From Vairimorpha necatrix (lineage: Eukaryota): a stretch of DNA of 64,000 nt. The position numbers and the translations under genes were made by a program. The notes beneath the pieces are model-generated. The model searched no databases, had not been told where the DNA came from, and saw only the letters and a program-made list of their open reading frames with translations. The stretch spans positions 310,001 to 374,000 of the forward strand of contig CP142731.1 of assembly GCA_036630325.1 (NCBI GenBank). The letters are read 5' to 3'. This document shows positions 8,658 to 53,959 of the stretch, one piece after another (position 1 is the stretch's first letter; each line of letters opens with the position of its first letter).

Positions 8658-9080
8658 TTTTTTTTGCATTTAAGAGGTAGGGAGAACCCTTACATGTGGA
8701 CTAGGGGATTTGTGTGTGATCCTTATCAAATTGGCACTGTAAAATTCTTACTCACCAAAACACCCTCCATATAACTTGTCGATCAGAAATCTCCTTTGTT
8801 TCCATTAGATTTTGGCACCAGAATGAATTTTTTAACACCTATACCAAAAATTGCGTCCAGAAGATCTCACGGCGAATATACTTAACGGACAGGGGTTAAT
8901 AACCCGAGGAGAGACATCACAGTACTAGCTTAAAAATTCCTACAATTATCTGTATCGCAAGACAGCTCCTTACACCACTACATTCCCATCTCGGCATTTT
9001 ATTGGACTAAATTGATGTCTAGCCAACTACGAGTTTCGACCACCGTGTTTTAGAATCTGAAAAAGGGTCCACGAACCTCA
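8658..9080 (-). mobile_element. 5'-truncated, diverged copy of the tRNA-headed SINE at 37016-37965
   Basis: Colinear similarity with 37031-37445 (taagaggtagggagaa.ccttacat, cgcgtccaga, atatacttaacgg, taacccgaggaga, ctccttacac). The T-run at 8658-8665 is the A-tail. Confidence 0.8.
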
Positions 9081-10043
9081 TATTATTTTATTTTGGTTAT
9101 TCAGGAAATGGCAATAAAAATAGCAAGCTCTCGAAAAGAAAGCTCCTTATTGAATGCCAAATTACTTTATTATAAACGTTAAAACATGCGTTAAATTCTC
9201 AAATAAAGTTGGATTAAGACACGAATTTAATGCTTTAACTTAACACGCTCGAAATCTAGAGATGCTATTTCTGGGCTTTTGAGTTCTTTGAAAAAAAAAG
9301 CTATGTTTTTAAGCAAGCTAAAGCCCACTAAGCGACTCAAAAAGTATAATCAGAAAATCAAAAGTTTGACCTTAGTTTACTAATTTGGCGTAAAATTCAT
9401 TATGGTGAAATATTTCCCAAATAATGCAAAAATGATATCTGTTCACGCCGGTCTATCTGTTAAACTAACCAAAACAACAAAGTTTGCAATAATTTCGACA
9501 ATATTTCTATACGTCTATATGAGTCAAGGGCGAACATTTTCCAACGCGTTAAAAAATAAAAATATTAATAAATTTAGTCTGCACTAGAAATCTGCGGGTA
9601 ACAAATATTCTCCAATTTCTTTATTAAGTAAAACATGAGCATACATCTATTTGTTTACAATATTGCTTAGCAAATATTTTTAAATGAGAAAGACCCGTTG
9701 GATGGCTTCCAATGTATCTCCTATTTATAATACCCAAAGTTAACCTAAATAGTGGTTAAATTTCGGCACATGCCTGTATGTCAAATAACTATAAGCTACG
9801 TCTAAATATGAGCGGGTGCATGCAATCTATTGAAAAAGTAAAGGACTTTATTAATAATCCAGCTAAAAATATTTGGACAAGTTCAAGTAGAAAAATAACA
9901 TAAAATTACTTTATTGGGGTATAATATTATATCTTACTTACTAATTACCTTTCAAATCTATACTCACAATTTCTTCTTAAGATCCCAGAGTTCCTCCTGA
10001 AATTTACACATTGGGTCCCTAAATACCCCTTCCTGTTCATTAT

Positions 10044-10392: not shown

Positions 10393-10846
10393 ATTATCAA
10401 GCCCATATCCGATTGACATAGTTAGGCTTTCTAAAGTCATTTTAAGGACTCTGTCTTTTTATATACTTTCATTCTAATTGGATCTTTTTTATATGCGAGC
10501 GGCGGAATTTAGTTTCTATTCCATCCCAAGTCATTACGTAATAATAAATTCAGTTTGAATTTGTAGAAAGAAGTTACATGATTTGCAAGCAAGTCGTATT
10601 ATGTTTATTTATTGTTTCTACCACATGAAGGTTGTTAAAGCTTTTGATTCCAACTTCAACAACGATCACTTCTTTCCTCAACTTGTCCACATTTAGTATA
10701 TCAGGCTTGTTATACTTTATTTTGATACTTGAGTGTATCCTATTGTCAAATCTTATCTCAACATACTCATTAACTACACATTTCTGGAATGAATGATTTC
10801 TAATTCTTTACGCATGGGATAATCCATACGTCTTACATAACTGCTG

Positions 10847-31496: not shown

Positions 31497-31741
31497 AATG
31501 TTGGTTAATTCTATAAATAGGCAATATTTGTTACTAAAATGCAAGCTATATTAATTTTATATACAAAAAACATACATTTTATAATCAGAAGTTTAAAATT
31601 ATTATTTTATTTTTTCAAGTTTTTTTTTTGAATATAAATTGTAATAATCACGCAATAAATACATTTTAAAATTATTATATAGTTGTTTACACCAGCTAAA
31701 AGCTGTAAATATTAATTATATTGTAAAAGATTTATTTAAAG

Positions 31742-31990
31742 CTAATTTATATGCTTCAAAGTCAGAATTAAAGTCAAATAAATAAGAACTAAAATTGAAA
31801 CCACAAATACGACATAGTATTTACCTTTTGTAACATCTTCATCAGCTTCTATAGTATCTTCTGTACTATCATCTTTTAATAACTTATAATTAGAATCTGA
31901 TAGATCTACTGTATAAAAAACGGATGATACTACTTTATTTAAAAATAGAATAGTTAATAAATAAGAGAATAAATTTCTAATGATATTCAT
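31742..31990 (-). CDS. Small secreted/membrane-anchored protein family, paralog 1
   Basis: MNIIRNLFSYLLTILF signal-like N-terminus, TVDLSD motif, acidic spacer, hydrophobic C-terminus. CCCATATG start. Confidence 0.85.
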   Translation of the reverse strand: MNIIRNLFSYLLTILFLNKVVSSVFYTVDLSDSNYKLLKDDSTEDTIEADEDVTKGKYYVVFVVSILVLIYLTLILTLKHIN

Positions 31991-33095
31991 ATGGGTTAAT
32001 TTTTTTTTTATTTAAATAGTATATTAAAAAAATTTATGATGTTGCATATTTAGGCGTAATTAGATTTATGTAGACTTCACTTATGAAGCGTAAATTGCTG
32101 TATATTTTATGTAATATGACTCAGTTAAATAAAATTTACATATTGTCAGTTATTTTTAAAAATTTGTCAAAATCAAACTAAAATATTTACATATAAATGC
32201 AAATATAATTTTTTTCAATAATAAAATTTGTTTATGGACTTAAAATGCCAGAATTGAAGGCTTATGTATAATTATTAAATATTAGTGATAATTATGTTAT
32301 ATATATCTGTCAATTTTAGACACTTCGGCCGCGTCGAGACATTTGACATTTTAAATTAATTTGATTTTTTTTTAAAAAAAATGGGTTATTTTATTCATTA
32401 AAAAGCACTTATCGTACTTAAAAGTTTTACATACAAAAATATTGTATATTATATAAATTTAATAATTGTTTTATTTGGAACTAATATAACGTTCGTCTCG
32501 TTATCTTGATTAACTCTTACAGGGGTAATTGTTATTGTCAAAGATCTTATAATTTTTTGAAATTTTCAAAACTTTAAACTAGACGCACTTTCCTTAGAAC
32601 ATGCCTTCTCAGCAAATATTTGTAATTCTTACTTTCCAAGATCTTCCTAATCGTAACCTCATTTTAATCTATTGACATAGACTCTAAAATATTAGTACAA
32701 TTGGTATTGTGTAAACGTCAAAAATGAAAGGACTTTCAGCTTCCATATGTGTTTTCCATGATATTGCAGTATTCTTCATCTCGCAACATCACTTATGGAA
32801 TTTTTTCGCCAGATTTTTGATTAGACTCGGATTTTCATACAAAAATAATATTTCTTTCGTTTTCTATTCTCGACTATAGTAATTAAATACTAGCATTAAT
32901 AAAACTTCCATGTTTAAATTTTTCTCATCAAACGCAAGATGAATATGTTGAAAATTATAATAACATCGATAAAAGTTTTATTGCTTAAATTATATGTAAT
33001 ACACTGCAATATAATTTTCAAATTATACAAAATTTTTTACTAAAATATAACTTTTGGATGTACTTTACATAAATATTAGAAAGCATTTATTCAAA

Positions 33096-33347
33096 TTAAT
33101 AAACACACTTAACAGCTAGAATTAAAGCCACGCATGAAAGAATTAAAATCGAAATTACAAAAACGACAAAAGATTTAGCTTTGTCACCATCTTCATAAGC
33201 TTCTAAAGTTTCATTTGTGCTATCATCATCTTGTAAAAGTGGAGCATTATAAACTGATAGGTCTACTGTATTTAAAACTGAAGCTAAGATTGTATATAGA
33301 AAGCTAATAGTTAACAAATAATAGAACAAGTTTTTAATAATATTCAT
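33096..33347 (-). CDS. Small membrane-anchored protein family, paralog 2
   Basis: MNIIKNLFYYLLTISF...TVDLS...FVVFVISILIL. CCCATATG start. Confidence 0.85.
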   Translation of the reverse strand: MNIIKNLFYYLLTISFLYTILASVLNTVDLSVYNAPLLQDDDSTNETLEAYEDGDKAKSFVVFVISILILSCVALILAVKCVY

Positions 33348-34691
33348 ATGGGTATATTTTTTTTAATTATATACGGCCTCAGAAATTTTAAATTATTAAA
33401 TACTTGAACTCGTTTGTTGTATAATTTTGAATTTACTACTTATTTTAAAACATCGTATATCTTATATTGTATGATTTTCTAATCTTAATAACATACATTA
33501 AGAGATGATAATGAAATTTATAAAAAATTACAAATATATATATGAAATGCTATTTTGCTGAAGAACAAAATTTGTCCAAAAATAAAAAATTCTAAGTTTA
33601 AAGACTAATTGTATCATTTTGTGAAAGTAAGGATAATATATATAATTTGATTAAAACAAAACGTCAGACGCATGGAGATATTTGACATCTTATTATATTC
33701 AGACAGTTTTAAAAAGCATATGTTTTCTATAAATAGATGGGAGTTCAAATAAACAAAAGATCGTCACATTGATAATTTAACAGTTTTAATAATAAAAATA
33801 ACATGCACAACGAGGACTAGACATAGTTCAAGTCGATATCCATTCTGCAATAAAATGTTTTTGACAAAAACTCCTACTACTATTATTTAAGAAGGCTTTA
33901 AACAGGAAAAGCGTGCAGGAAGGTAGCAAAACTTAATTTAATGAATATCATACATTTGAAACATCCCTTAATTTTAATAGACGTACCCTCGCTGGGGTGG
34001 GTCTAACCACATTTAAGTTATGACGTAACAAAAATATCACTAAAATAAAATATAGTGTGCATTTATCAATAAATTAATTTAGATTCATTTAATTTATTAG
34101 TACAGACACTCCAGTCTCATTTATGAGATTGAATCTTAGAAGTTTCTAACTATTATTGTTAACCCTTTCAGAATTTTCAGACTATAAATCACTTTTTATG
34201 CGCATTTCCTTTAGACTTACTTTTTCAGGCAGTACATTTCTATTTCTGGCTACTTCTTCCTCTCAAGAAACTTCTTAGGCGTAGTCTCATTTTACTCCGA
34301 ATATACAGACACTAAAGACTTCTTAAGTATGATAGATAAGACTTGAACTTTAAATAATGAATATATAATTCAGCCTTATGCTGGTTTTCTGTAATATTTA
34401 GTCATTACTAACATAATTACGCTCGTTGAATATTTATATTTACATGAATGAATAAAAATTTTTTATTTGGAATTTAATTTTAGACTTTAGCAAGTCAACA
34501 CTGGCAGTTATTCAAATTTATTATTAATTTTTTCTTTCTTTTTGCTAAACACAAGAAATGTTATAAAATTTATAAATATCATTAGTAAAAAGTCTTTGTT
34601 GCTTCAATACATGCTATACGCTGCAATAGAATTTAACATTTTTATAAAATTTGAATACTTCACAGGAATAAAAAATAGCATTTATTTAAAA

Positions 34692-34937
34692 CTAATTAAT
34701 GCACTTCAAAATTACGACAAATGCTCCAAACGATAAAATCAAAACCAAAACAACTAATGCTTCATACAACTTAGCTTTTCGTCCATTTTCATATGTTTCT
34801 AAAATATTTGTGAAATAATCATTTTGTATTGGTGGGTCATTATTGTCCGATAGGTCTATTGTATAAATTGATGATATGACTGTATTGAAAAATACATTGG
34901 CCAACAAATAAGAGAATAAGTTTAAATTAATATTCAT
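34692..34937 (-). CDS. Small membrane-anchored protein family, paralog 3
   Basis: MNINLNLFSYLLANVF...TIDLSDNN...ALVVLVLIL. CCCATATG start. Confidence 0.85.
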   Translation of the reverse strand: MNINLNLFSYLLANVFFNTVISSIYTIDLSDNNDPPIQNDYFTNILETYENGRKAKLYEALVVLVLILSFGAFVVILKCIN

Positions 34938-36214
34938 ATGGGTTAATTTTTTTCAATGTATACAATCCTTAAAATTTTGAAAAAATAATTTTTTAATTCA
35001 TTAATTAGACAATATATTTAAGTGTATATTGAAAAATATGTTTTTTACATGTTTCTATTACTCTATAATATAGAATTCTAGATTAGAGCAAATCTTATAA
35101 AAAATGTCAAAATCAAATTAACAAAAAATTTATAATTAAATAAAAAATTCATTTTTTGCTATAATTACATCTGTAGAAAGCTCAATAAATTTTATAAATA
35201 TTTTGTTTCAAGTGTAAATTGTTTTCACTGTGTATTGCAAAAAAAAACATATCAAATATCGACACGTTGTATGAATTGATACATTTGACATCTTAAAATT
35301 TACTAATTTGTAAAAACACTTGGAATAAAAAAACATATTCAAGGCTTTTAAAATAGAAAGATGCCGTTAATTCTTAAAATATGATTTCAGTTTTTATAAA
35401 AACAATAAACCTAGTATTTATACTAAAAGATCATTTGAAATAATGTTTGGGGTTAAAATCTATATTTTGATATGTTATTTAACTTAAAAGAATGTGCTGT
35501 ATTTCTTCATATGGGAAATAAACATAAAGATAATATTTTTAATATTGTTCGTATTCTTATTGCATATTGTAAAATACATCATAAATCATTTAAATCATTG
35601 AATGTGTATAAATTACATATCTTTGTTCTTTATAAATATTCAACTTTTTATGGTTATAGTTAAAATTAATAGATAAATGGCTCTTGATATATTTTTTATT
35701 TTGAGATTAGATTTCTATTTTGTGAGTAATTTAAAAATATTAGTGTCTATTATATGGGCTAAAATACATACAAAGTATCAATATAAGTGCAACTTGAATT
35801 TTATATTTTGTCTTTTTTTACATTGACATGCAATTATTATTGTTATTAATGCATATTTATTAAATTAAACCCTTACTTACAATTATAAACTTCATTTTTT
35901 TTGAAAACTAAATTAATTTTTTTTATAACTCTTAACTTTTGCGTTATGAGGAAATTAGTTTAAAGGATATTTTTAGAACAATTAAAGTCCTTGGTTTGGG
36001 CTTGTATGTGGATTTTTTGCAAATTTTATATTATGTGACTAAAATTGTTATACTTATTAAATCTAACTTACTCCGCATGTATTTTTAGTTAATTGTTCTT
36101 ATAATTGGTTAAAAGAAAAATGCCGACGTAGAAATGGCATGGAATCATCTAAATCGCTTCATCCATTGACAAAGGTCTTTTGTTTTATTTTTAAGCATAT
36201 AAAAATTTAGTACA

Positions 36215-36816
36215 TGAACGTTTGGAGCCCGCATTGAAAATTTAAGTGGACTTCACTATAAAAAAAGGACATAATTGGTAAGAACAAAATTTGTTAATCA
36301 AATGAGTTTTTTAAAAAATAAATAGATTAAAGTAGTTTAAAATTTTAATATGCAGAAACAGCGTGTGCCTTACGTGTCCTGTGGCTAGTAGAAATGCGTC
36401 TATTATTTGAGGATATGCAAGATAATGTATTACCAGTTCTATTGTGATCACTGATCAATGGTAGCATATGATATCGCATTAGACAAATCACGGGCATGGA
36501 GCACAGGGCTGTAAATAACGTCGTTAATTACATAAACTTTAAGGATCCTGGGACACAATACCAAACAAATTGAGTGATTTTAGTCTCTTGCTAAAAGAGG
36601 TATCCGGTCTAGGCATGGAATAAACCAGAACGAATACTAGCAGTACCTTTTACAGTTCGTCTTCTTACCAAATATCAAAAAATTAACGTTAAATTATCTT
36701 CTTTTATTATTCAAAATAAATTGTTAAGTCTCTTGTTGTATAATTTTTTTTCATTTCTCCTTTTTTTTAAATTTATAATGCGGGTTCATTTTTCTAATGT
36801 GCGGGTTGAACGGTCA
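36215..36816 (+). mobile_element. Degenerate Merlin transposon relic
   Basis: Remnant DNVLP.SIVITDQW..Y (36421-36470) and NFKDP...T.QIE (36535-36575). Weak inverted ends cccgcatt / aatg(t)gcggg. Confidence 0.55.
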
Positions 36817-37015
36817 TGTGACAAAATTTCATATGAAACATCTAATACCCTTATACATCTAAAACAAATCAATATTCCAAATCGCCAATAAAATTAAAAC
36901 TGTTTTTTGCTATGAGGTCTTTTTTTATAGAAAGCTACTTGTTAAGGGGAATATTTTCAATATTTAACTTTCATATTGTCTACGCAGATCAGAAATGCTA
37001 TCAATTATAAATTAT

Positions 37016-37965
37016 TTTTTTCCTTGCAAGTAAGAGGTAGGGAGAAACCTTACATAGGGACCAGAGGGATTTGGGCGTGATCCTCATCCAACTGGTACTG
37101 TGAGATTATTACTCACTAAAACTCCCTCCATACACTTGCCGGTGCAGCAAGCTCCGCCGTATCCATTGGACTTTATCTCTAGGAGAACGTTTTCCATTTA
37201 TACCTCAAATCGCGTCCAGAGTGACCTCACAGCGGATATACTTAACGGGCATGGTTATCTATAACCCGAGGAGATACATCATCGTACTGACTCAAAGGTC
37301 CCTACAATCATCCGTATTGCACACACGGCTCCTTACACGACCACATCCCCAGCCCGGCGGTTTTATTAGCTGCGTTGACCACCAGTCTCCCACTAGTTTC
37401 GGCCACCATGTTACAGAATCTTGTAGGATAGGGTTTACGAGACCTTCTATTGCCCTACTTCGTCTAGTCTCTTAGTTAGCTCTAGGATCCCACTCTAGAG
37501 TGCACCAGCCATGGGTTCCAACTGGGCCGTACCCATTAGATACTTTTATGTATCATTAAGTCACCAAAGGGCGATGCTGCTTTTTGGCCTTGAGGTGCGT
37601 TTCTACACTAGATGCTAATCCCCCTGTGGCTGGACACACACAAGTTTCATTGAATCAACTTAATGATTATCGTGGACATTTTCATCATCTGAGTTGTTCC
37701 AACTGCATCATAGAAAGTAGAAACAATTTTGGTGCCCCTGGGAATCGAACCCAGCCATTGCTCAATGGAAGCATTACATTCTACCACTGTGCTAAGGGCA
37801 CCTAACAATTTTGGTGCCTTTGGGAATCGAACCCAGCCATTGCTCAATGGAAGCATTGCATTCTACCACTGTGCTAAGGGCACCTAACAATTTTGGTGCC
37901 CCTGGGAATCGAATCCAGCCACTGCTCAATGAAGCATTGATTTCTACCACTGGGCTAAATGCACC
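37016..37965 (-). mobile_element. Full-length tRNA-derived SINE with a trimeric tRNA-Gly-like head
   Basis: Three tRNA-like units, an ~700-bp body that is GC-rich relative to the flanks, an A-tail (T-run 37016-37021), and an 11-bp TSD TTATAAATTAT at 37005-37015 and 37966-37976. Second partial copy at 8658-9080. Confidence 0.88.
37730..37965 (-). ncRNA. Three tandem tRNA-Gly(TCC)-like units (37894-37965, 37812-37884, 37730-37802; 82-bp period)
   Basis: A box TAGCACAGTGGTAG, B box GGTTCGATTCCC, T-arm CTGGG/CCCAG and acceptor GGTGCCC/GGGCACC. The anticodon arm does not pair canonically. Confidence 0.8.
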
Positions 37966-38489
37966 TTATAAATTATATAATATTGTAAAAAATGAACGTT
38001 GCCAATTGCAAGAACTAGTTATTACATACTTTTATACTAGTTTTTTTTACATTTTTATTGTAAACAATTACATAAAATGAAGTATTTTTTGACAAGTAAT
38101 AAACTTTTTTATTTTATACAGATTTGTTTATTTTCATCTTTATAGATCATATATTTGAAAATTGGAATTCACAAGTTGAACTTAAAAATTTTGCATTATA
38201 ATTTAACACATCCTGTTCAGAGGGAGCATTTAAAATATGCTTTAAAAAAGTCCGACATGAATAAGGGACCTGTATTCATAAACATAATCTGTAAATTTTA
38301 CGTATTTTTCGTGTCTGTTTAAGATTTTTTCTGAAGTTTAACTTAATAATTCCAGATAATATAATTCATTCTAATACAAATATATGAAGTCAACTTAAAT
38401 AAACATATTTTACTATTATTGGGTTTATAATATTTTTTCTGTCCATGGAGTATTCTGTACTGCAATATTCGAATCTTTTTGGTAAACAT

Positions 38490-38762
38490 TTATTTAGCAT
38501 TTACAATGCTTATCATTCTATTAATAAATATACAACAACAAATTAAAGATACTATGAATATTATTATGTTACTTTTAGTAATTGTAATTTGTTCGCTATT
38601 CCCAATTGTATTTTCTGTATTATTATTATTATTATTATTAGCATCTTCTATTGATATGCCATTATGATCTGAAATTTCTACAGTAAAAGGTACTACTAAA
38701 AAAACGAGATTTGAAAACAAAATAGTCAACAAGTAAAAGATAAAGTTTTTATAAATCTTCAT
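38490..38762 (-). CDS. Small membrane-anchored protein family, paralog 4
   Basis: MKIYKNFIFYLLTILF...TVEISDHN, poly-N spacer, hydrophobic C-terminus. CCCTATATG start. Confidence 0.8.
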   Translation of the reverse strand: MKIYKNFIFYLLTILFSNLVFLVVPFTVEISDHNGISIEDANNNNNNNTENTIGNSEQITITKSNIIIFIVSLICCCIFINRMISIVNAK

Positions 38763-40375: not shown

Positions 40376-40376
40376 A

Positions 40377-41417
40377 CTAGCGTATGCTTTCCCGTTTTGA
40401 AAACGGGATCTTAATGTTTTGTTTTATAATATGTCCCGCCTCGGTGAATTTTGGAGAGTTTCCATTTTGGGATGATTGAATTTGACAGGGTAAAGACATG
40501 ATTTTTTAAATACTTTTTAGAGACATAGAAGATGTAAAGTTAAGTTAAAAACACAATTTAATCTTACTTAGATAATTTTAGGGCACCCAAAGCTCATTTT
40601 TGACACTTTTATTCTGTTTTTTCTCTGGTTAATATTTTAGTGAATTTTTTCTAGAAGGGTCAAATAAATTCTAAAAAACGATTCTGACGATATTTTGGAA
40701 CTGAGTTTAACAAAAAAACAATAATCAAAATTAAATGTATTAACACATAGTATACACACTTACAATAATCATATCGAAACATTAGATATAAATTTGATGT
40801 TTTTAATACACAATAAGTATGAAATAAGAAGTTTAGATTTTACAAAACCACAAAAAATAGGGGTAAAAAATTAAATAAAATTCTTTTATATATATGACTA
40901 GCGTATGCTTTCCCGTTTTGAAAACGGGATTTAAATGTTTATATTTTGATAATATGTCTTTCATCCTTAAATTTTGTACAGTTTCCATTTGGGGATAATT
41001 GAATTTGACAGATTAGACATGATTTTTAAAAATACTTTTTAGCAACATATAAGAAGTAATGTTGTTTTAAAACATTTAATAATCTCAATGAGATAATTTT
41101 GGGAAGTTCTAAGTTCAATTTTTGACGCTTACATTCATAATAATTATTGGTTAAATATTTTTACAATTTTTCGTAGAAGGGTTAAATAAATTCTAAAAAA
41201 CGATTCTGATGATATTTTGGAACTGAGTTTTCAAAAAATAATAAATAGAATAAAAAAGTATTAATATATAGTATCCGCACATATGATAGTCAAAATCCAT
41301 CATTAGATCTAAATTTGATATTTTTAATACACAATAAGTCTAAAGTTTATAGTGTAGATTTTACAAAACCACAAAAAAGAGGGGTAAAAAATTAAATAAA
41401 ATTCTTTTATATATATA
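40377..41417 (-). mobile_element. Two non-autonomous Helitron units head-to-tail (40377-40897, 40898-41417)
   Basis: Minus strand starts TCATATATATAAAAGAAT (the unit ending at 41417 lacks the C) and ends with hairpin CCCGTTTTCAAAACGGG, 10 nt, then CTAG. Confidence 0.92.
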
Positions 41418-44400
41418 CTAGCGTATGCACACCCGTTCTGAGAACGGGTTGTTTGTGTTTGCATGGGTACATGTTTTAATTTTATCACATTATGTTTATT
41501 CTTTAAAAAGATGGCATAGTTTCTGTACGCTCACGGCGCATTTTACCATCTTTTATCTTGTTTTTGTTGAAAAAAAATGGCATAGTTCTTGTACGCTCAC
41601 GGCGCATTTCTTCATCTATTGCTCTTATGAGCCAATTAGTTCATGTAGAACTACATTTTTGACATTGCCCCTGTTTCCCCCCAACTTGCTCTCAAGTTTT
41701 CACTCTTCTTCACTCTTGACAAAGCTACGTATAATTGACCATGAGAAAATACATCCTCAGGCAAATACACTCCCACTTTGTCAAAAGACTGTCCCTGTGC
41801 TTTATGTATTGTCATCGCATATGACAATACCACAGGAAACTGTCTTCTTTTAAGTACAAACGGAAGAAGAGTGTCACTTGGCATCATGTCTATCTTTGGT
41901 ATAACAGCAAGGGTGCCCCTTCCCCTTCCTGTTATTATTTCACCTAAGATGTAATTATCTTTAAGACCTTTTATCTTCAATCTGGTCCCATTTAATAATC
42001 CATTCTTAGGATCAATATTGCGTAACAACATCACTATTGCCCCTATCTTCAATACTAACTTATGTGGAGGTAGTCCTGATGGCTGTTGCATGTATAAGAA
42101 CTCAAGAGGAAATCTCAGTTGTTCTTCGATATCCTCTGATTCTATAGCATCAGAACTCACATATACCCTAGAAGATCCATTAAGTAGGTTTAACACTTTG
42201 GCATTCAATTCATTTGCATGTTCATTTTTGCTCGTTAAGATAATCTTATCAAACAAAGAATCATCACCTGCTTCAATTTTGATTGTTCCAAAAATGCTAT
42301 CGATTATGTCCCCTTCTTCAAGATATTCTTTGGGTATCTCCACACATCCTTTACTATCTCTAGTACGCCCCTCACCTATATCTAACAACCACTTATTAAA
42401 CTCCAATTGATTATAAGATCTCATATTCGTTTCAAGCTTTAGTACACAGACATGTACCCAAAGTCTTGAACTAATTAATGAGTTCTCGATGATATCATTT
42501 GGAGTACCCTTCATTACAATGGTTGATGTCTGTCTAAAGTCACCACCCAATAATAAAGTCTTCCCTCCAAAGATATCATTATTATTACAGAGTCTTTTAA
42601 GCACCTCATCTATTGCGTTCAATGCATGTTTTGACATCATTGAAACTTCATCTATTAGCAATAAAGAGGCCTTTATTATTTTCTCTGCTTCAGGAGTATT
42701 TCTTTTTAATCTAGATACGCTGGTCTCTGTCAAAGGAACAGGAAGTTTCATACAGCTATGCATTGTTCTTCCATCCTTTAGCAGATCTGCAGCAATACCT
42801 GTGGTTGCCATTTGAATTGAAGATTTCCCATTCTTACTTAGATACTCAATCAGGACATTGTATAAATACGTCTTCCCCGATCCAGCTGGTCCATCTAAAA
42901 AGAATAAATTGCCCTTTTTATCAATATTATCTGTTATTTTATCAAAAGCATCCCTCTGTTTTGCATTTAGAGAGGAGATCATCTGATCTAGATCTTTTCC
43001 ATTATCAGAGATAGTTTTTGCCTTCACGATATAGTTAATCGGCTCATCTAAACCCAGAGCATTTAGACTCCATCCATGAGCATTAACTATATCTTTTAAT
43101 CTACTAATAACTTCGTCTCTACTATTCTGATCTAGATCTTCAGACATATCTCCAAGATACTTATCAAAGAGTTTTTTGGTATTTTTTGGCTTATTAAAAG
43201 CACAAATATATCCAAACAATGCTCTTATTATTGCTGGGGATTCGGTTGCTACTGCCTCATCCAAAGCCCTTTCCCATTCTTTGTCATCTTGAAGAAGTCC
43301 TCTTTCTTCAACCGCTTCTGCAAAAGAACTATAAACTATACCATTTACAGTTCTCAAATCATCATATGATCTAGCCCCCTTTACATTGATCAATAGGACT
43401 CTGAGGCTAAATCTTTCCTTCTCTGTAGGAGATACAGAATAAAGTCTAGTAATTATCTTGCTGTACTTATTCTTTCTCCTTATCCATTCTCCCCTTTTAT
43501 ATGTATAGTGATAGGGTATCTCACTATATGCAAATTGATTTGCCTCTTCATCAACTTCATTCAACTTGAAGTAGGCTAAAAGAGGAGTCTGTCTAAGATC
43601 AGATAATCTAACAGCTTCCTCTTCTTTCCCTTCTTCGAAAGTGATCAAGTGTTCTTGTGGAAGATGCACAGGAAGTCTATGGATCTTATGAGATCTCCCA
43701 TGCATCTTGTATTCCATTAATCTCCAGGTAGCCTCTGGTGCTGAAACATATCTGGAATTCACAAAATGATCAATTTCATTGTTGTCAGTTATTCTCATTT
43801 CTGCACAATCAAATCCCTTGTAAATATACTTGAAAATATACTTAACTGACTTGATAGAAGTACAAACTTCTACATTGATATGACAGTTGTATTTTTCAAG
43901 CAAATAAGCATTATAGGGGACCACGTTAGCATTAGTAACAATGTTTCCCCTTACATTGTACTCGGTCCCTCTTATTCTTCGGTATTCAGGATATCCGTCA
44001 TTATTTATCTTTGTTTCAAAGTTATATTCTTTGGGATATTCTTTCGTGCAGACACCATTTTCCATGCATGGACTTGTCAAGTAACTTAATCCACATGGTC
44101 CATGAATCATATGTTTTGTTACACAGTTGTGTAACATCTCATTGTCCATGGGTGATGGTATTTCTGCACTCACATACTTATCTATTCTTTCTTCATCCCG
44201 AATCTTATCCTTTAACATTATCAATATGTGAGCATGAGGAAGTCCACGTTTTTGGAACTCAATGGAATAGACATGAGCCACAACTTCCCCAAATACTCTT
44301 CCTGACAAAATCTCCTCCATCATGCTTTTTAATTTCAAGTTAAAGACCTTTGCTACCAAATCAGGCCTATCAACTGCAGTTTGTCCCCCAAATAGATTCT

Positions 44401-46534
44401 CCTTTATCTCCTTCCAATTTGGATTGCAAGTCATAGTAATAAAAAGATCGGGCTTGCCGAAATTTCTTACGATAGACATTGCATCGTGGTATCTTTCCCT
44501 CATATTTCTTGGAGATCCCTGGAAGCTTGATGGTAAAATTACAGGCTTAGCATTACTTTCTATTCCATTATTTATATAATCTACTAAGCCTTTGTAAAGA
44601 TCTACCCTCAACTTCTTCTGATTTAACTTTATGAAGTTCAAGTTGTTTGCTTCTACTTGTAGATATGAATCTACAATCCATTGTTGAAACAACTTCCCTC
44701 CATAGAGTAAAGGATTGAACTTATCTTTTCTTATAGATATTTGTGCTACTTTATATTGTAGTAAAGATATCTTCTGTGATTCCCCATGATAAGACTCAAT
44801 CCTCAAATTTGCGTTCCATCCAGCTTCGCCATGTGGATAGAACAAAGTATATGTCATTGGATCTAAATGTGGACTTAAAATATCCAAATGTAAATTATCA
44901 GAACTAAGACCCTTGCTATATACTTTAATGTCCCTTTCAAATGGTGGTTCTCCATTTGGATCAGTAAAAATCATTGCGATTTCATTTGTTGAGGGAGCAT
45001 TATACCTTCTCTGATCCCTTTCTAAATTCTTATTAAAGACCATAGAAATGTCTTTAACTTCTTTTCCCATCTCCTTTTGCTCCTTTATTACTTCAGACAT
45101 ATTCTTGTATGCATTGGAATATGGATTGGCAGATCTTATAAATCCATCTAATTTGCTCATGATATATATATCACAATTTCTATTAGATGGATTCGTCATT
45201 CTTTGGGCATTTGCCATATCACTATCTACTACATATAATTGAGCATACTTCTTTGGTGTATTAGAGTCCATATTATTTACATTATAAGTGTTATGATACA
45301 CTTGACCATGTATTTTAAATACATATGGTCCATTGGATACAGTTTCTATTTGAGCACCAAGAGAAGCAAAAGAAAGAGCAGCATTGTAGGATCTAATATT
45401 GTCTCTGAAGTTTTTTGCATCTTTATTTTTTCCTATATATAAATTCTTAATGTCGTCTGGGAAGTCTCTTGTTCTTTGTAATTTAACTTTCCCAAAATGA
45501 CAGCAGCTTTTGTATAATCCATTACTGCTTGCTTCTCCAGCAAAATGTAATGCACCACAAAAGCCACATTCTTCTTTGAGATCTCCACAATAATGTTCGG
45601 CATGGTTTCTAGTACTGATTCTGCAAGCTACATCTAGAATCTCCGTCAAAGCATCCAAATTAGTGTTATTAATTCTCATGATTGTTTCTTCTGTTTCTTG
45701 GGCCGTTTTGTTTTCGCTAGAGAAACTGAATATAGAATTCCTTTTTTTTGTTTCTCCAGCATTTGTTTTTTTATTTTTAGTGCTATTTACAGATGTCTTG
45801 GCTTCATAGAAAACAACATTGTTGTTTTCAGTATTACTACTTATCTCCTGAGAGATAGTGACGTTTGCTTTGGGTTGCTTACTACAATCATTTTTTGTTT
45901 GATTTTTCGTAAACATAATGGGGGCAAAGAAAAAAAAAAAGTATTTATAGTTTTTAAAATTAAAATTCCATTTTGGGAAAGAAGAAAACAAAAATGAGAA
46001 AATGATTTTTTATAAATAGCTTTGATATTAGTCTAAATATTAATTAATTGAGTTTGTTATTCAGTTGATAAATTTCTAATGTTTGTAAATCAACTTTATT
46101 ATGTTTATTTATTTTGATCATATTGATTTTGATTTTCCATTTCTGGAAGGAAGAATTAAAAAGGAGAAATGTGATTTTTAAAAATTAAGTATATTATTGA
46201 ACCAACATTCAGTGGTAAAGTTAATTCAGAAACAAATATAAATTCAATTAAGTTAATTTCACACATTAGCAACAAATTTTTTAATATTTGTGTCACATTG
46301 TTTTTGTTTTCTTTTTCTAAAAGGAAGAAATTAAAAAGGAGAAAATCATATTTCTAAGAATTTCAAAAATGATTTAGAAATAAAATGTAAATAATGAAAG
46401 TGGTTGAAAATTGTCTATAAAATACAATTCAAGTATTCAAAATCAATTTTAGATCAAAATTAGCAATTTTATTTTTTTACCATTTTTTATATTTTAGGGG
46501 TAAAAAATTAAATAAAATTCTTTTATATATATGA
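41418..46534 (-). mobile_element. Autonomous Helitron (5117 bp)
   Basis: 5' TCATATATAT at 46534. 3' hairpin CCCGTTCTCAGAACGGG plus TGTGCATACGCTAG ending at 41418. Intact RepHel ORF inside. Confidence 0.95.
41651..45916 (-). CDS. Helitron RepHel transposase (zinc finger, HUH Rep, Pif1 helicase), ~1421 aa
   Basis: CGFCGALHF...CCHFG, PDLFITMTCNP, EFQKRGLPHAHIL, KYIFKYIYKG, GPAGSGKT, DEVSM, GDFRQ, TIHKAQGQS and GQLYVALSRV. Likely start ATG 45916 after CCCCC. Confidence 0.97.
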   Translation of the reverse strand: MFTKNQTKNDCSKQPKANVTISQEISSNTENNNVVFYEAKTSVNSTKNKKTNAGETKKRNSIFSFSSENKTAQETEETIMRINNTNLDALTEILDVACRISTRNHAEHYCGDLKEECGFCGALHFAGEASSNGLYKSCCHFGKVKLQRTRDFPDDIKNLYIGKNKDAKNFRDNIRSYNAALSFASLGAQIETVSNGPYVFKIHGQVYHNTYNVNNMDSNTPKKYAQLYVVDSDMANAQRMTNPSNRNCDIYIMSKLDGFIRSANPYSNAYKNMSEVIKEQKEMGKEVKDISMVFNKNLERDQRRYNAPSTNEIAMIFTDPNGEPPFERDIKVYSKGLSSDNLHLDILSPHLDPMTYTLFYPHGEAGWNANLRIESYHGESQKISLLQYKVAQISIRKDKFNPLLYGGKLFQQWIVDSYLQVEANNLNFIKLNQKKLRVDLYKGLVDYINNGIESNAKPVILPSSFQGSPRNMRERYHDAMSIVRNFGKPDLFITMTCNPNWKEIKENLFGGQTAVDRPDLVAKVFNLKLKSMMEEILSGRVFGEVVAHVYSIEFQKRGLPHAHILIMLKDKIRDEERIDKYVSAEIPSPMDNEMLHNCVTKHMIHGPCGLSYLTSPCMENGVCTKEYPKEYNFETKINNDGYPEYRRIRGTEYNVRGNIVTNANVVPYNAYLLEKYNCHINVEVCTSIKSVKYIFKYIYKGFDCAEMRITDNNEIDHFVNSRYVSAPEATWRLMEYKMHGRSHKIHRLPVHLPQEHLITFEEGKEEEAVRLSDLRQTPLLAYFKLNEVDEEANQFAYSEIPYHYTYKRGEWIRRKNKYSKIITRLYSVSPTEKERFSLRVLLINVKGARSYDDLRTVNGIVYSSFAEAVEERGLLQDDKEWERALDEAVATESPAIIRALFGYICAFNKPKNTKKLFDKYLGDMSEDLDQNSRDEVISRLKDIVNAHGWSLNALGLDEPINYIVKAKTISDNGKDLDQMISSLNAKQRDAFDKITDNIDKKGNLFFLDGPAGSGKTYLYNVLIEYLSKNGKSSIQMATTGIAADLLKDGRTMHSCMKLPVPLTETSVSRLKRNTPEAEKIIKASLLLIDEVSMMSKHALNAIDEVLKRLCNNNDIFGGKTLLLGGDFRQTSTIVMKGTPNDIIENSLISSRLWVHVCVLKLETNMRSYNQLEFNKWLLDIGEGRTRDSKGCVEIPKEYLEEGDIIDSIFGTIKIEAGDDSLFDKIILTSKNEHANELNAKVLNLLNGSSRVYVSSDAIESEDIEEQLRFPLEFLYMQQPSGLPPHKLVLKIGAIVMLLRNIDPKNGLLNGTRLKIKGLKDNYILGEIITGRGRGTLAVIPKIDMMPSDTLLPFVLKRRQFPVVLSYAMTIHKAQGQSFDKVGVYLPEDVFSHGQLYVALSRVKKSENLRASWGETGAMSKM

Positions 46535-48095
46535 CTAGCGTATGCTTTCCCGTTTTGAAAACGGGATTTATAGTTTTGTTTTATAATATGTACCTCCTTT
46601 ATCTTTTTGTGAATTTCCATTTTGGGAAGAACGAATTTGAAAAGGAGAAAACATGATTTTGAAAAATACTTTTTAGTAACATATAAGGAGTAAATTTGAT
46701 CTAAAAACATTTAATAATTATAATAAGATAAGTTTGGGAAATTCTAAGCTCAAGTTTTGACACTTATATTCAAAATCCTTATTAGTTAATTGTTTTATGA
46801 ATTTTTGTGGAAGGGTTAAATAAATTCTAAAAAACGATTCTGACGATATTTTGGAACTGAGTTTTACAAAAAATTTATAAAAAACAAAAATGCATTTACA
46901 CATAATATACTTACTTACAATAATCATATCGAAACATTAGATTTAAATTTAATATTTTTAATACACAATAAGTATGAAATAAATAGTTTAGAAATTTCAA
47001 AGTCACAAAAAAGAGGGGCAAAAAATTAAATAAAATTCTTTTATATATATGACTAGCGTATGCTCTCCCGTTTTGAAAACGGGCTTTAATATATTTTGTT
47101 TATTGCATTTACTTCTTCCTTTATTTTTTTTGAGTTTCCAATTTGGAATGAATGAATTTGAAAAGGAGAAAACATGATTTTAAAAAATTCTTTTTAGTGA
47201 CATATAAGGAGTAAAGTTGAGCTAAAAACATTTAATAATTATAATACGATAATTTATGTAACTTCTAAGCTCAAGTTTTGACACTTTTATTCAATTTCTT
47301 CTTTGTTATTTGTTTTTGCAATTTTATCTGGAAGGGTTAAATAAATTCTAAAAAACGATTCTGACAATATTTTGGAACTGAGTTTAACAAAAATAATAAT
47401 CAAAATTAAAATGTATTAACACATAGTATACACACTTACTGTAATCATATCGAAACATTAGATTTAAATTTAATATTTTTAATACACAATAAGTATGAAA
47501 TAAATAGTTTAGAAATTTCAAAGTCACAAAAAAGAGGGGCAAAAAATTAAATAAAATTCTTTTATATATATGACTAGCGTATGCTTTCCCGTTTTGAAAA
47601 CGGGATCGAAATGTTTAGTTTGCTAATATGTCTTATATCCTTAAATTTTGTAAAGTTTCCATTTTGGGATGAATGAATTTAATAAGGAGAAAACATAATT
47701 TTTAAAAATACTTTTTAGTAACATATAAGGAGTAAAGTCGAGCTAAAAACATTTAATAATTATAATGAGATAATTGTGGGAATTTCTAAGCTCAAATATT
47801 GATACTTATATTCAAAATCTTTATTAGTTAATTGTTTTTACAATTTTTCGTGGAAGGGTCAAATAAATTCTAAAAAACGATTCTGACGATATTTTGGAAC
47901 TGAGTTTAACAAAAATAATAATCAAAATTAAAAAGTATTAACTAATAACATACACACTTAGAATAGTCAAATTAAAGCAATAAATCTATATTTGATATTA
48001 TATTAACGTAAAAAGCTCAAACCATATCGTATAGAATTTTTAAAACCACAAAAAAGAGGGGTAAAAAATTAAAAAAAATTATTTTATATATATGA
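46535..48095 (-). mobile_element. Three non-autonomous Helitron units head-to-tail (46535-47052, 47053-47573, 47574-48095)
   Basis: CTAG|TC junctions (plus strand tatatga|ctagcgtatgc) at 46534/5, 47052/3 and 47573/4. Same termini and hairpin in each. Confidence 0.92.
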
Positions 48096-48469
48096 TGATG
48101 GGTCAAGTTAGTTTTATTTTAAAATACTACCCCTTAACATTGTTAAGTTGTTTAATTCTTGAAAATTTTATAATTCCTAAAAGATTAATAAAATATGTGT
48201 CTTTGATTATAAGTACGGTCATTATAGAATTAAAAGAAACTAAATTCATAATGTACAAATTTACAAAATTTTTAAGAGCAAAAATAAAGTTATGTAGTCG
48301 ACGAAATATTACAAAAAGTTGTTAGAATTATTATTAATATTGACTGAGATGTTTTATAATTATATTTAAAAGATCAATCAATGATAGTATTATCATTTTT
48401 ATTCAAATGCTCAAAATAGATTAAAAACCTATCTGTTTCTGTTTTTTAATAATATATAAAATGGCATTA

Positions 48470-49180
48470 AAGAATCGAAATATTTTCTTAGAGAAACAAA
48501 AAAAATACACACTTTAACGAAAATGCAAAGATTGTAGATCTTATGGCCCCCCAATGTGATCGTATGCTTTCATGTGATTACATGATGCACAACGATGCAT
48601 ACATCTGCAGTTCTGTAAGACGTACGGGCTATCTTATGCTAAAAGAATTATCAATCACACAGTCCAGAAATGTGTATCTAACGAGTAGGTTGAGAAAGAG
48701 TAAACAGCTGGTACATTCAAGTATCAAAATAAAGTATAACAAGCCTGATGTAATAATTGAGGATAAAGGAAAGAAAAGATTGTTGTTGAGGTTGAAATCA
48801 CAAGCTTTAACGATATTTATGCTGTAGAAACAGTAATAATTAAAATACGACTTGCTTGCAAATCATGTGGCTTCTTTCAACAAAAAAAATCGAAATTATT
48901 TGTTACGTAGTGAATTGAGATGAATTATCATTATATTTAACGCGCGCATATCAAAAGCTGCGATTAGAATCCAGAACGAAAGTATATACGCAAACAAGAG
49001 TTCTTAAAAAGACTTTAGAAAGCCTAACTCTGTCAATAAGACATGGGCTTTATACTGAACAGGAAGGGGTACTCGAGGACCCAATATGTGGATTTCAGGA
49101 GGAACTCCGAGATCTTTCAGACGAGATTGTGATTGCATCTTGTAAAAAGTAATTAGCAAGTAATATATTATACGATAAAT
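48470..49180 (+). mobile_element. Decayed 3' fragment of the RLE-type non-LTR retrotransposon
   Basis: QCDRMLS.DY and HSSIKIKYNKPD. Colinear with the reverse complement of 50210-50940. Confidence 0.8.
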
Positions 49181-49325
49181 ATTTCATAAATTACATATTC
49201 TAGTTTTATCTATGTTTATACAAATCACTCTTTTTGCATGTTCCACTAGGTCAAACTATAGAAAAATCATCAATTATAGATATAAATGTAAAATGGAGGT
49301 TGACGGTTGTCTACGAACATTAGTA

Positions 49326-49974: not shown

Positions 49975-50209
49975 CATTGTGTTATTATCCGAATAAATTC
50001 AACATGATTTTACCGAATAAAAAAGATTTGAAAATATTTTTTATTGTATTTCCTCATAATTTAACTAAGTGCCGTGTTATATATAGTTTACACATTTATT
50101 AAAAGTTTTAAAATTATTATAAGAAAAAAAATCAACACGAAAATATACACCAATAACCAAGCATTACAACAGAATCTCTCTAAACATAAAAATATATAAA
50201 TTAAAAAAT

Positions 50210-51120
50210 ACTTTTTGGGGGTATAATTTATTAATTTACTTACTAATTATTTTTCACAAGCTCTGCTCAATTTCTTCTGGTAGTTTTCGGAGTTTCTCCT
50301 GAAATTTACATATTTGGTCCTCGGACACGCCTTCCTGTTCAGTATCAAGCCCATGTTCGACTGACATAGTTAGGCTTTCTAAAGTCTTTACAAGGCCTCT
50401 TGTTTGCATACATGCTTCCGTTCTAGATTTTAATCGCAGCTCTTTGATACGCGCGCGTTATATAATACTAATACATCCCAATTCATTACGTAATAAATAA
50501 TTTTAGTTTGAATTTGTAGAAAGAAGCCACATGATTTGCAAGCAAGTCATGTTATGAGCTTTTCTGTTTATACCGCATGAAGGTTGTTAAAGCTTGTGAT
50601 TTCAACCTCAACAACGATATCTTCTTTCCTCAACTTGTCCAGAATTAGTATATCAGGCTTGTTATACTTTATTTTGATACTTGAATGTATCCTAGTGTCA
50701 ACTCTTATTTCAACATACAGATTAGCTACACATTCCTGGATTGAATAATTTCTAATTCTTTTAGCATGGGATAATACATACGCCTTACATAACTGCAGGT
50801 GTATGCATCGCAGTGCCTCATTGTGCTGTCTCATGGAATCATGTGAAAGCATACGATCACATTGAGTGGCCATATGATATACTGTCTTTGCATGTTCATG
50901 ACAATGTGGGTTTTTTTGTTTTTCTAAGAATATGTTTCGGTCCTGTAGTACACATAAATTGCCTTCCTTTCTTTGGCTTATATTTCCTTTTGTAAGCCAC
51001 ATAGCAGCCTGATTTATATCAATGAGTATTTCGTCTTGTGGTCTAAATGGCTTTGAGTGTTTTATTTTTGTTTTTATATCGCTATAAAGAGCTTTGATTT
51101 GGGTCTCTATCAATGTTTTA
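50210..51120 (-). mobile_element. 5'-truncated RLE-type non-LTR retrotransposon
   Basis: ORF 50568-51113 has WLTKGNI, LQDRNIF, RQHNEALRCIH, IRVDTRI and KYNKPDILILD..VVEV, with a premature stop. 3' UTR shared with 9910-9960. Confidence 0.88.
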
Positions 51121-51978
51121 ACTGTGAGGGTTTCCTTAAATTATATTTCTCAATAAATTTACATTATAGTTTTGTTAAAATATTGCTGTAATAGTGACTA
51201 GATACGAAAAAATATAGGGTGCTATCTGCAACACTTACTCGTTTGTGTTAAAACAGAAGGGTTGACGCAACGTAATTTGTGTAGCTGTACTTTTAAATGA
51301 CTCTCCCAAAATAAGACCATATACGTTTTGCATTGTTTAGATAAATTTGCACACGATTGATCCGCTTTTTGTTTTTTGCCAAGAAAATATGTTTGATAGA
51401 AAAATGTCCGTTATTAGTAATTATTCTATAGATAAAAATATAGAAAAATCCTATGTAGCATAATACATCTAAAACTTTTGTATTGGACATTTTTAACAAA
51501 TATTTTGTTGTAATTTTTTATGTTCCAGCTCATCTTTTTTTAGATTTTTTTTATGTTAAGGTTTTTTGATTAACAAGATAAGTACAGAATTATATTGTAT
51601 AAACAGCGCGAAAAAATTGCCGCAATCATACATTTTAAAAAAAATAGATATTAAGCATTGTAATAGAGATAGTATAGTTTTATGAAAAAGATAGGCCAAT
51701 GCATAGTTGTCTTGCACGCCGTCAACAGTTGTTAAAAAAAGTATTTTTATTATTTTATACTGTCGATTTTTCTGTAATATTGTAGAACTGTCAACTTAAA
51801 AACACAATATATAGTAATATATCCATTTAACAATATAAATAGAATAGTTTAAAAAAGTCTTTTTTGTTCCATATTTAACTAGACAAAGTTTCAATATTAC
51901 CCCTGTTTTGATTAGCATGCTTTTCATTTATTCAATATATATAAAAATGAAATTACATAAAAAATTTTAAAATGTATT

Positions 51979-52212
51979 TTAATTTTTATTTATAGCTAAA
52001 AACCAAGTAATAAGAACACAAACAAATGAATAAAAAATGAAAAAAACGACGAACCTAGCAAAATCTTTGCATCTATTGCCTGTGATATTAGTATCTTCTC
52101 CCAATAACGCAACAGAATCTTCTATTTGTACGGTATAAATTGCTGTTTTTATGATTTGGTTTAATAGTATGATGGTCAGTAAGCAATGCAATAAATTTCT
52201 ATGAATATTCAT
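51979..52212 (-). CDS. Small membrane-anchored protein family, paralog 6
   Basis: MNIHRNLLHCLLTIILL...YTVQIED...FVVFFIFYSFVCVLI. CCCATATG start. Confidence 0.8.
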   Translation of the reverse strand: MNIHRNLLHCLLTIILLNQIIKTAIYTVQIEDSVALLGEDTNITGNRCKDFARFVVFFIFYSFVCVLITWFLAINKN

Positions 52213-53959
52213 ATGGGCTAAAATTTTTTATATTTTATAAGTTTTAGACAATCGAGGAATTCAATGATATATTAGATTACAATACTTTCAACAAAATTGG
52301 TGTGCTCTATATCACATAACAAATTTTATGAAACGATAAGTTTAAATATTTTTTTTAATGTTATTACTAATTGAATGTTTCAATTTCATTTACATAATAA
52401 ATTATTTCTTATAAAAATTTTGTTCAGTATACATTTCTTATGATTATGTCATAATGATTTATTTATAGTTTTTTCCTAAAAAACATCTACATTGTTTTGT
52501 ATATTCCTTTAAGAACTTTTCCTATAATTTTTTCTATTTTAATAAATCAATATTTTCTAAAAATATTAATTGTATCTATTACTTTTACTATTTATTATTT
52601 CTACGTTTTTCCTATGATCAGACTCTTTATTAATCATTTTATTGTTCTATCAAACATAAATAATATTGCATACAAATATAATCATGATACTTTTCGCAGA
52701 TAGTAGCAAATGATAAACAATATAATTTTATATCCATTTAAAATTTAGAAAATTAAAAAATTAATGTTTTTGCGGCTTATTATATTTGTTACAATATCTA
52801 TAAAGATACACGGGGATACCAAGGCGTGTAACATATGCGGCAATGAAATGATTCCGATGTATGAATATTGTTGGATTTCGTCCTTTTTATTAAGACGGAA
52901 CGTCGTTGTATATTAATGGAATAAATCGCTATAAGAAAAACATATAACATTGTTTTAAACATACGTTCAAAATTTAATATAAATTTACTACGTCAATATT
53001 CTAGTTTACAGAATTTTTAGATGCATAAGGAATCGATAAAACCTCATCTAATAAAGCCAGATTAAAAATGAACACACACACAATTCCTGTTTATTGATTA
53101 AATAGACATTTTGTAAGATTTTTTTTAAATATATAAATCCTTAAGTATAATAAATAGCAAAAATTCTTTATGCTATAATAATAAAATATTAGATCAATAT
53201 TTAGTATAAAAGGCGGCCTCTTTTTAAACTAGACGTCAGAGTACTTAATTGCATAGAAATGTTCTGTGTTTCAATATCTGTAAGCTTATATTCATAAGAT
53301 TAAAAAAAAGATTAAATAGGATAAAAGTGGATTGTTTTTTTGACTTTCATGGGGATCTAACTTTAACAACTTTTATGGTCTTATGTAAAAAAACATATAA
53401 TAGGTCTTATGTAAAGAAAATATGTTTATACAAACTAAACTACGATGTAAATTAGCATCTTGTTTTTTTTTCTAACATATCTTATAAGAAAGACCAGTGG
53501 TTTCTTCATATACAACTAATTTTTAAAATTTTATAGCAAAAAATTATTTATCTAAGACTTAATAATTTACTAATATTGTTGTAGCAGTATTAATTCAAAT
53601 GAGAATTTTTTAGCAGTATTTTGCCTCGTCTGCATTAGCTGTTTTAAGTCGTTATTTCTTCTGAATTTTTTCAAGACATTCTTAAGATTATTAAAAATAG
53701 TATAAGCTTTATTTTTATAATAAATTTCCAATACTCTTTTGTATATTGTGATAATGCCGGCCTAATTTCAATGAAGTATTAGTTTTTATTATAGTTCCAA
53801 GCATTAGCTCCAGCTCATTGTTTTTGGTTTTATGTCGCGTTTTTTTTTCAAATAGTTAAAAGTTTTAGCAAATATATTTCGCTGTCATAAAAGATATTAA
53901 AAACTTAATCATGTTTCAGTCTACATTTTACAGAAAAAAGAGGATTAAAGATAAATCAT

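What the first reader, a model, noticed from the sequence alone, without database searches (positions are those of the whole stretch)
37005..37976. 950-bp SINE with a trimeric tRNA-Gly-like head
Seen: three 72-73-nt tRNA-like units (82-bp period, A and B boxes largely intact, anticodon arm degenerate), a 700-bp body, an A-tail and a perfect 11-bp TSD. The transcribed strand has only one T4 run (37118-37121) in 950 nt despite the AT-rich genome, as expected for a Pol III transcript. A diverged 5'-truncated copy lies at 8658-9080. Known: SINEs normally have one tRNA head and are usually shorter. Inference: a long, multi-headed SINE family probably mobilised by resident non-LTR elements. I do not know of a described equivalent in microsporidia.
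Basis: partly seen in the sequence, partly recalled or inferred. Interest (0 to 1): 0.75.

Follow-up and report, generated by a model that had tools for sequence, protein, structure and literature searches.

The report
Microsporidian SINE copy with tripled head
A real 950-base jumping element (a SINE) in an insect-infecting microsporidian carries three tandem tRNA-like heads, but it is most likely one copy of an ordinary single-headed family whose head was duplicated twice, not a new three-headed family.

Summary
The element is real: 37016-37965, minus strand, 950 bp, perfect 11-bp target duplication (chance 4/5000), three tRNA-Gly(TCC)-like heads at 82-bp period, a non-coding ~700-bp GC-rich body, a short A tail, and a 74-76% identical 5'-truncated copy at 8658-9084. 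The genome is Vairimorpha necatrix or a very close relative. The T4 argument fails (P 0.19-0.40). Without two heads the element is 787 nt, the size of the single-headed ~770-800-nt SINE that this scan already noted elsewhere in this genome (10 notes seen, none mentioning extra heads; link not confirmed by sequence). The 5'-most head, which a propagating trimer would need as promoter, is the most decayed (8 private changes, B-box G53A). Best reading (0.65): a copy-specific head triplication, by DNA tandem duplication or reverse-transcriptase template switching, whose progeny would tend to be monomers. A propagating trimer is not excluded (~0.15), because heads per copy could not be counted genome-wide. 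Trimeric tRNA SINEs and tandem duplications inside SINE copies are both described. The partner LINE is unidentified. My searches found no published microsporidian SINE family.

The parts
37966..37976 (.). Target-site duplication, 5' side of the element
   Evidence: 11/11 identical to 37005-37015
37894..37965 (-). Head unit 1 (5'-most), tRNA-Gly-like, most decayed: 8 private changes, one anticodon base deleted; A box 37946-37957, B box 37905-37915 with G53A
   Evidence: fold z=0.10; not called by ARAGORN
37885..37893 (-). 9-nt spacer 1
37812..37884 (-). Head unit 2; A box 37865-37876, intact B box 37823-37833; 2 private changes
   Evidence: fold z=-1.5
37803..37811 (-). 9-nt spacer 2, identical to spacer 1
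37730..37802 (-). Head unit 3, best preserved (acceptor 7/7, T stem 5/5); A box 37783-37794, B box 37741-37751; 1 private change
   Evidence: fold z=-3.3
37712..37729 (-). T-rich trailer after head 3 (contains T2GT3), resembling a decayed tRNA-gene terminator
   Evidence: sequence; T2GT3 tested as a non-canonical human Pol III terminator in PMC3141230; function here is inference
37022..37720 (-). Non-coding body, ~700 nt, 46% GC
   Evidence: no Pfam hit in 6 of 6 frames; no Rfam family at gathering score; fold z=-1.1; GC
37118..37121 (-). Single T4 run, also present in the truncated copy
37016..37021 (-). A6 tail
37005..37015 (.). Target-site duplication, 3' side of the element
8658..9084 (-). 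Old 5'-truncated copy: 3' ~430 nt of the body plus A tail; no head, no TSD found

Best explanation
This is one insertion of a long tRNA-Gly-derived SINE. Inferred from established SINE biology: RNA polymerase III transcribes a source copy from the A and B boxes inside the head, and a non-LTR retrotransposon's reverse transcriptase copies the RNA into a staggered nick at an AT-rich site, leaving the A tail and the 11-bp duplication. The normal family unit is one head plus body, about 787 nt. In this copy the first 82 nt (head plus 9-nt trailer) were multiplied to three. The more likely route (about 60:40) is two successive DNA-level tandem duplications after insertion, first unit 1 versus units 2/3, then unit 2 versus 3. 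The alternative is template switching during insertion onto short head-only transcripts that end in the T-rich trailer. Since unit 1's promoter is damaged and units 2 and 3 are intact, transcription would tend to start at an inner head, so daughters would lose the extra heads: the trimer should be self-erasing. Shown here: boundaries, TSD, second copy, unit structure and decay pattern. Inferred: transcription, the mobilising enzyme, family membership and the duplication route.
For: TSD at both exact ends, chance 4/5000. Body dispersed 28 kb away with the same 3' end and a lost 5' end. No coding signal. Unit 3 plus body = 787 nt; of 10 distinct SINE notes shown for this genome (8 of 32, 8 of 41), 6 span 785-789 letters, all span 769-802, one names tRNA-Gly, and none of the displayed lines mentions more than one head (leads, unchecked AI notes). 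Private changes 8, 2 and 1 in units 1, 2 and 3; a simultaneous (star) origin is unlikely (P=0.026). Unit 1 carries G53A in the B box and a D stem of 1/4; a complete promoter is needed in the 5' unit (PMC13023118 passage). An intact TSD is compatible with 4-6% divergence since insertion (P=0.26-0.41). Tandem duplications inside single SINE copies, including of the tRNA part, are described, and most stay single instances (PMC10702118). Template switching yields same-sense RNA chimeras (PMC13174262).
Against: Sequence look-ups found no look-alike among the scan's indexed windows, so the link to the single-headed family rests on length and description only; the index needs about 90% identity and the one sibling I hold is 74-76% identical. 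Heads per copy were not counted: no genome is held and no reads were laid. Only one headed copy was examined (1 of 2 copies in the window). There is no exact microhomology at the duplication junction. The perfect TSD also fits a young insertion of a pre-formed trimer. No partner LINE tail was found in the window. A T4 run sits about 100 nt before the 3' end in both copies, and the two 5S genes here end in T4AT2, so full-length Pol III transcripts need read-through.
Confidence: 0.65

Rival explanations
1. A propagating complex SINE: a trimer-headed source gene was transcribed from its first head and retrotransposed as a 950-nt unit, so a three-headed subfamily exists.
For: The TSD encloses all three heads and is 11/11 identical. 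Units differ by 4-12%, which could predate insertion. Trimeric tRNA SINEs exist. The A box of unit 1 could pair with the B box of unit 2 (inference).
Against: Unit 1 is the most decayed and has a B-box mutation. No multi-head mention in 10 displayed notes from the same genome, and a word search for multi-headed microsporidian SINEs returned 0. No near-identical sibling found.
Confidence: 0.15
2. A SINE copy of a separate family from the ~787-nt elements noted elsewhere (own body, low copy number), with the head number of that family unknown.
For: Zero look-alikes by sequence. Earlier notes give several lengths (about 750-800), suggesting more than one family.
Confidence: 0.12
3. A functional tandem tRNA cluster, or a functional Pol III non-coding RNA gene that was retrocopied.
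For: ARAGORN of 3 units; unit 3 folds well (z=-3.3); 5 of 87 predicted pairs change on both sides between the two copies.
Against: In the Gly register the anticodon stem keeps 2 of 5 pairs; in the Met register the loop lacks U33 and a purine at 37. Identity between the copies is evenly spread, with no conserved block beyond chance (P=0.20 and 0.61). Body folding is unremarkable (z=-1.1). Two sequences cannot establish covariation.
Confidence: 0.05
4. Assembly artefact: a single head expanded by read or consensus error.
For: Tandem repeats are error-prone in assemblies (general knowledge); reads were not examined.
Against: The three units differ at 12 columns with unit-specific substitutions; an artefact would copy identical units.
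Confidence: 0.03

Closest known systems
tRNA-derived SINEs (SINE2 class; head, body of unknown origin, tail), as defined in SINEBase (PMC3531059, passages)
   Same: tRNA head with A and B boxes, non-coding body, A tail, TSD, under 1 kb, dispersed 5'-truncated copy
   Different: 787 nt as a monomer and 950 nt here, above the 75-662 nt range of the 175 families in that 2012 paper; host is a microsporidian; copy number and partner LINE not established
Complex SINEs made of tRNA dimers or trimers: colugo t-SINE (Piskurek 2003; Schmitz and Zischler 2003; cited in PMC4758252, originals not read), tree-shrew Tu type III trimer (PMC13023118), Twin SINE of Culex (title only)
   Same: Several tandem RNA-derived units at the 5' end
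   Different: Those amplify as multimers, which is not shown here; PMC4758252 lists tRNA multimers and head-body-tail SINEs as alternatives, whereas this copy has three heads and a 700-nt body
SINE-derived satellites and SINE copies with internal tandem duplications in squamates (PMC10702118, passages and Discussion)
   Same: Tandem units taken from one end of a SINE, the terminal unit continuing into the rest of the element; one variant repeats the tRNA part; most stay single genomic instances
   Different: Only three units, in a fungal-related parasite; no sign of array growth
Single-headed ~770-800-nt tRNA SINEs noted by this scan in the same genome (unpublished AI notes)
   Same: Length of the one-head equivalent (787 nt), tRNA head (Gly in one note), A tail, 13-15-bp TSDs
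   Different: Three heads; sequence identity to those copies not established

Membership tests
tRNA-derived SINE | Short (<1 kb), interspersed repeat | tested here: met
   950 bp; second copy 28 kb away
tRNA-derived SINE | At least 60% identity to a tRNA over at least 60 nt | tested here: met
   Unit 3 matches a phage tRNA-Gly(TCC) at 54 of 79 columns, best of 27 phage tRNAs; that tRNA was picked as a BLAST hit (E=2), an unselected Gly(TCC) ranks 2nd-4th. The organism's own tRNA set was not available
tRNA-derived SINE | Internal A and B boxes | tested here: met
   Intact in units 2 and 3, B box mutated in unit 1
tRNA-derived SINE | Target-site duplication and simple tail | tested here: met
   11-bp TSD, A6 tail; no TSD found for the old copy
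tRNA-derived SINE | Non-coding | tested here: met
   No Pfam hit in 6 frames read through stops; stops in all six frames
tRNA-derived SINE | [quoted passage not shown] | not testable with these tools
   2 copies in 64 kb; no genome held
tRNA-derived SINE | Transcribed by Pol III | not testable with these tools
   T4 scarcity is not significant; no expression data obtained
tRNA-derived SINE | 3' end shared with a partner LINE (optional feature) | tested here: inconclusive
   No shared tail with the LINE relics in this window: best score outside the two copies 29, shuffled maxima 28-37; rest of genome untested
Complex (trimeric) SINE family | Amplifies as a multimer: several loci with the same multi-unit head | not testable with these tools
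   One such locus seen; indirect evidence is against
Complex (trimeric) SINE family | Complete promoter in the 5'-most unit | tested here: not met
   Unit 1 B box has G53A and 8 private changes; judged from sequence, not assayed, and the damage may postdate insertion
Functional tRNA gene cluster | Cloverleaf with intact D and anticodon arms, U33 and purine 37 | tested here: not met
   D stem 1-2 of 4; anticodon stem 2 of 5 in the Gly register; C before and T after the anticodon in the Met register

The most novel reading that the evidence does not exclude
A three-headed, 950-nt SINE subfamily propagates as a unit in a microsporidian, combining a tRNA trimer with a 700-nt body (longer than any of the 175 SINEBase families), its extra heads gained by reverse-transcriptase jumps onto head-only transcripts released at the leaky T2GT3 trailer. 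That would catch complex-SINE birth in a 15-Mb genome, and near-identical copies in other organisms' sequencing runs might then trace horizontal spread.
Probability: 0.15. Interest if true: 0.55.

Novelty: new member of a known kind. Interest (0 to 1): 0.3.

Why it matters
No characterised SINE family in microsporidia turned up in my searches, so a long tRNA-derived SINE in Vairimorpha fills a taxonomic gap and may explain part of the roughly 50% repeat content reported for V. necatrix. That point is shared with at least ten earlier notes of this scan. The tripled head adds a snapshot of how complex SINEs or SINE-derived satellites begin. If it is copy-specific it is a curiosity; if it propagates, it is a testable case of multimeric SINE birth in a small genome with four haplotypes that can be compared.

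Tried and rejected
Whole-genome copy count: no genome is held. Sequencing runs for 36400-38600: 8 runs listed, 6 hold part of it, none half or more; X1 0.41 and X2 0.25 of the words, four with small shares (0.05-0.13); no RNA holder listed. None was laid, so they are no evidence: 0.41 fits either the element alone near-identical (it is 43% of the stretch) or the whole stretch at about 97% identity. Head number per copy and empty alleles therefore stay unchecked. Exact-pattern scans found nothing: tail motif in metagenome and viral contigs, head motif in metagenome, viral and prokaryote contigs; these collections hold few microsporidia. Body against plasmids: no match. Four motifs in the paper library: 0 papers. 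Idea that homology extends past the A tail, making the TSD accidental: rejected (flank similarity P=0.10-0.36). Missing 5' part displaced downstream of the truncated copy: rejected (score 32, shuffle 95th percentile 34). Body as a decayed ORF: rejected. Body as a known RNA family: only sub-threshold hits. ARAGORN's Met(CAT) call: rejected as a shifted register. T4 scarcity as Pol III evidence: rejected. Window LINE relics as partner: no shared tail. SINEBase supplement and the Kramerov and Vassetzky review were not held. Dfam, Repbase and SINEBase sequences, tRNAscan-SE and host insect genomes could not be searched.

Full report
Context. The window is 28% GC with compact housekeeping genes, two dispersed 5S genes, a Helitron ORF and MULE fragments. 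Its proteasome beta-3 protein matches PDB 8ADN chain I over all 205 residues; that this entry is Vairimorpha necatrix is recalled, not given by the call. So the organism is V. necatrix or a very close relative. No genome was available for this window.

Observation. The element spans 37016-37965 on the minus strand (950 bp) and is 47% GC against 30% and 23% in its flanks. An 11-bp direct repeat touches the A6 tail at one end and base 1 of the first head at the other; such a match arose in 4 of 5000 random window pairs. Three heads follow at 82-bp period. A copy of the 3' ~430 nt lies at 8658-9084, 74-76% identical, with the same 3' end and no head. Homology does not extend beyond the tail (P=0.10-0.36). 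The old copy has drifted towards AT (40% versus 48% GC) and has no recognisable TSD.

The heads. Counting from the first G, units 2 and 3 have T33, TCC at 34-36, A37 and the T loop at 54-60, the canonical positions of tRNA-Gly(TCC). Among 27 phage tRNAs the best match for all three units is a Gly(TCC); it was chosen from a non-significant BLAST hit, and an unselected Gly(TCC) ranks second to fourth, so Gly is supported moderately. ARAGORN's Met(CAT) call uses a shifted, re-paired stem whose loop lacks U33 and purine 37. D stems keep 1-2 of 4 pairs and the Gly anticodon stem 2 of 5: these are not working tRNAs. Units 1, 2 and 3 carry 8, 2 and 1 private changes, plus one junction base. Unit 1 has lost an anticodon base and has G53A in the B box. 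A simultaneous origin of the three is unlikely (P=0.026); the pattern fits unit 1 separating first, or coming from a different source.

The body. No Pfam family in any of six frames, no Rfam family at gathering score, ordinary folding energy (z=-1.1). Between the two copies 5 of 87 predicted pairs change on both sides, but identity is evenly spread (P=0.20) and two sequences cannot show selection on structure. The window's non-LTR relics (around 2652-3080, 10619-10843, 12602-12954, 48464-48826 and 50571-51140) are related to reverse-transcriptase proteins and show a cysteine-histidine knuckle and a PD-(D/E)xK-like motif (naming this the restriction-like endonuclease type is from recall). Their 3' ends do not resemble the element's tail, so the partner is unidentified.

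Family context. Removing two heads leaves 787 nt. This scan's notes on other pieces of the same genome describe tRNA-headed, A-tailed elements of 769-802 letters; I saw 10 distinct notes (8 of 32, 8 of 41), 6 of them 785-789 letters, one naming tRNA-Gly, none mentioning extra heads in the lines shown. These are unchecked leads, and sequence look-ups found no look-alike, which is expected below about 90% identity but leaves the link unproven. Pattern scans of metagenome, viral and prokaryote contigs were empty.

Mechanism. Inferred from general SINE biology: Pol III transcription from the head, then target-primed reverse transcription by a LINE enzyme, giving the tail, the TSD and 5'-truncated copies. 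For the tripling there are three routes. (a) Two DNA-level duplications after insertion: fits the stepwise divergence, is compatible with the intact TSD (P=0.26-0.41) and has precedent in squamate SINE copies, where most such duplications stay single (PMC10702118, Discussion read); no exact microhomology marks the junction. (b) Template switching at insertion onto head-only RNAs: both junctions fall exactly where the monomer has T2GT3, a motif tested as a non-canonical terminator of human Pol III (PMC3141230, abstract and passages; yeast is stricter, microsporidia unknown), and switching gives same-sense chimeras (PMC13174262, passages). (c) A propagating trimer: it needs a working promoter in unit 1 (PMC13023118, passage), which is the damaged one, though the damage may postdate insertion. 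I put a copy-specific origin in the ~787-nt family (a or b) at 0.65 and (c) at 0.15.

Comparison with print. SINEBase gives 75-662 nt for 175 families, 13% complex (PMC3531059, passages; supplement not held). Dimers and trimers of tRNA units are described (PMC4758252, passage; PMC13023118). Lepidopteran tRNA SINEs are about 260-300 nt with microsatellite tails (PMC8010984, passages). For microsporidia: 'SINE' occurs 0 times in the V. necatrix genome paper and its 3 supplements (PMC10759460), 0 in PMC4202319 and PMC7313128; SINEs are reported absent from Microsporidia MB (PMC11585130); PMC13702014 lists SINE as a RepeatMasker category in a figure I could not see. Searches (12 of 13 listed; 10 of 11; 25 of 258; 25 of 75), seen as listings, showed no description of a microsporidian SINE family. 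Subscription journals, Dfam and Repbase were not searched.

Verdict. A real SINE-type insertion, a new member of a known kind in a group where the kind seems undescribed and which this scan has already noted repeatedly. The three heads are real but probably a property of this copy. Interest 0.3.

Noticed in passing
window 40376-41448 and 46496-48095: Two arrays (about 2 and 3 units) of a ~520-bp repeat, 78-85% identical, one on each side of the Helitron ORF.
   Followed up: no
window 41651-45916 (-): Uninterrupted 1421-aa Helitron Rep/Pif1-helicase ORF.
   Followed up: partly
window 1849-1967 and 7840-7958 (+): Two dispersed 5S rRNA genes, 98% identical, each followed by T4AT2, a local hint of the Pol III terminator.
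   Followed up: partly
window 2652-3080, 9902-10924, 12535-12954, 48464-49199, 50191-51140: Five decayed 3' fragments of non-LTR retrotransposons; the closest long relative found is annotated in a paper-wasp assembly (P0001, 56% identity), possibly a microsporidian contaminant or a transfer.
   Followed up: partly
window about 10044-10394: A ~350-bp insertion interrupting one LINE fragment (gap between BLAST pieces; sequence).
   Followed up: no
window 11174-12512 (+): MULE transposase in two overlapping frames, lying between two pieces of a LINE fragment whose ends match in inverted orientation (10856-10924 versus 12535-12603, 100%).
   Followed up: no
window 31718-34962 and 52114-52235: Another dispersed non-coding repeat family, 67-73% identical pieces.
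   Followed up: no
window 55150-55623 and 56216-56800 (+): Two adjacent ORFs that look like glutathione-peroxidase paralogues by eye (not scanned).
   Followed up: no
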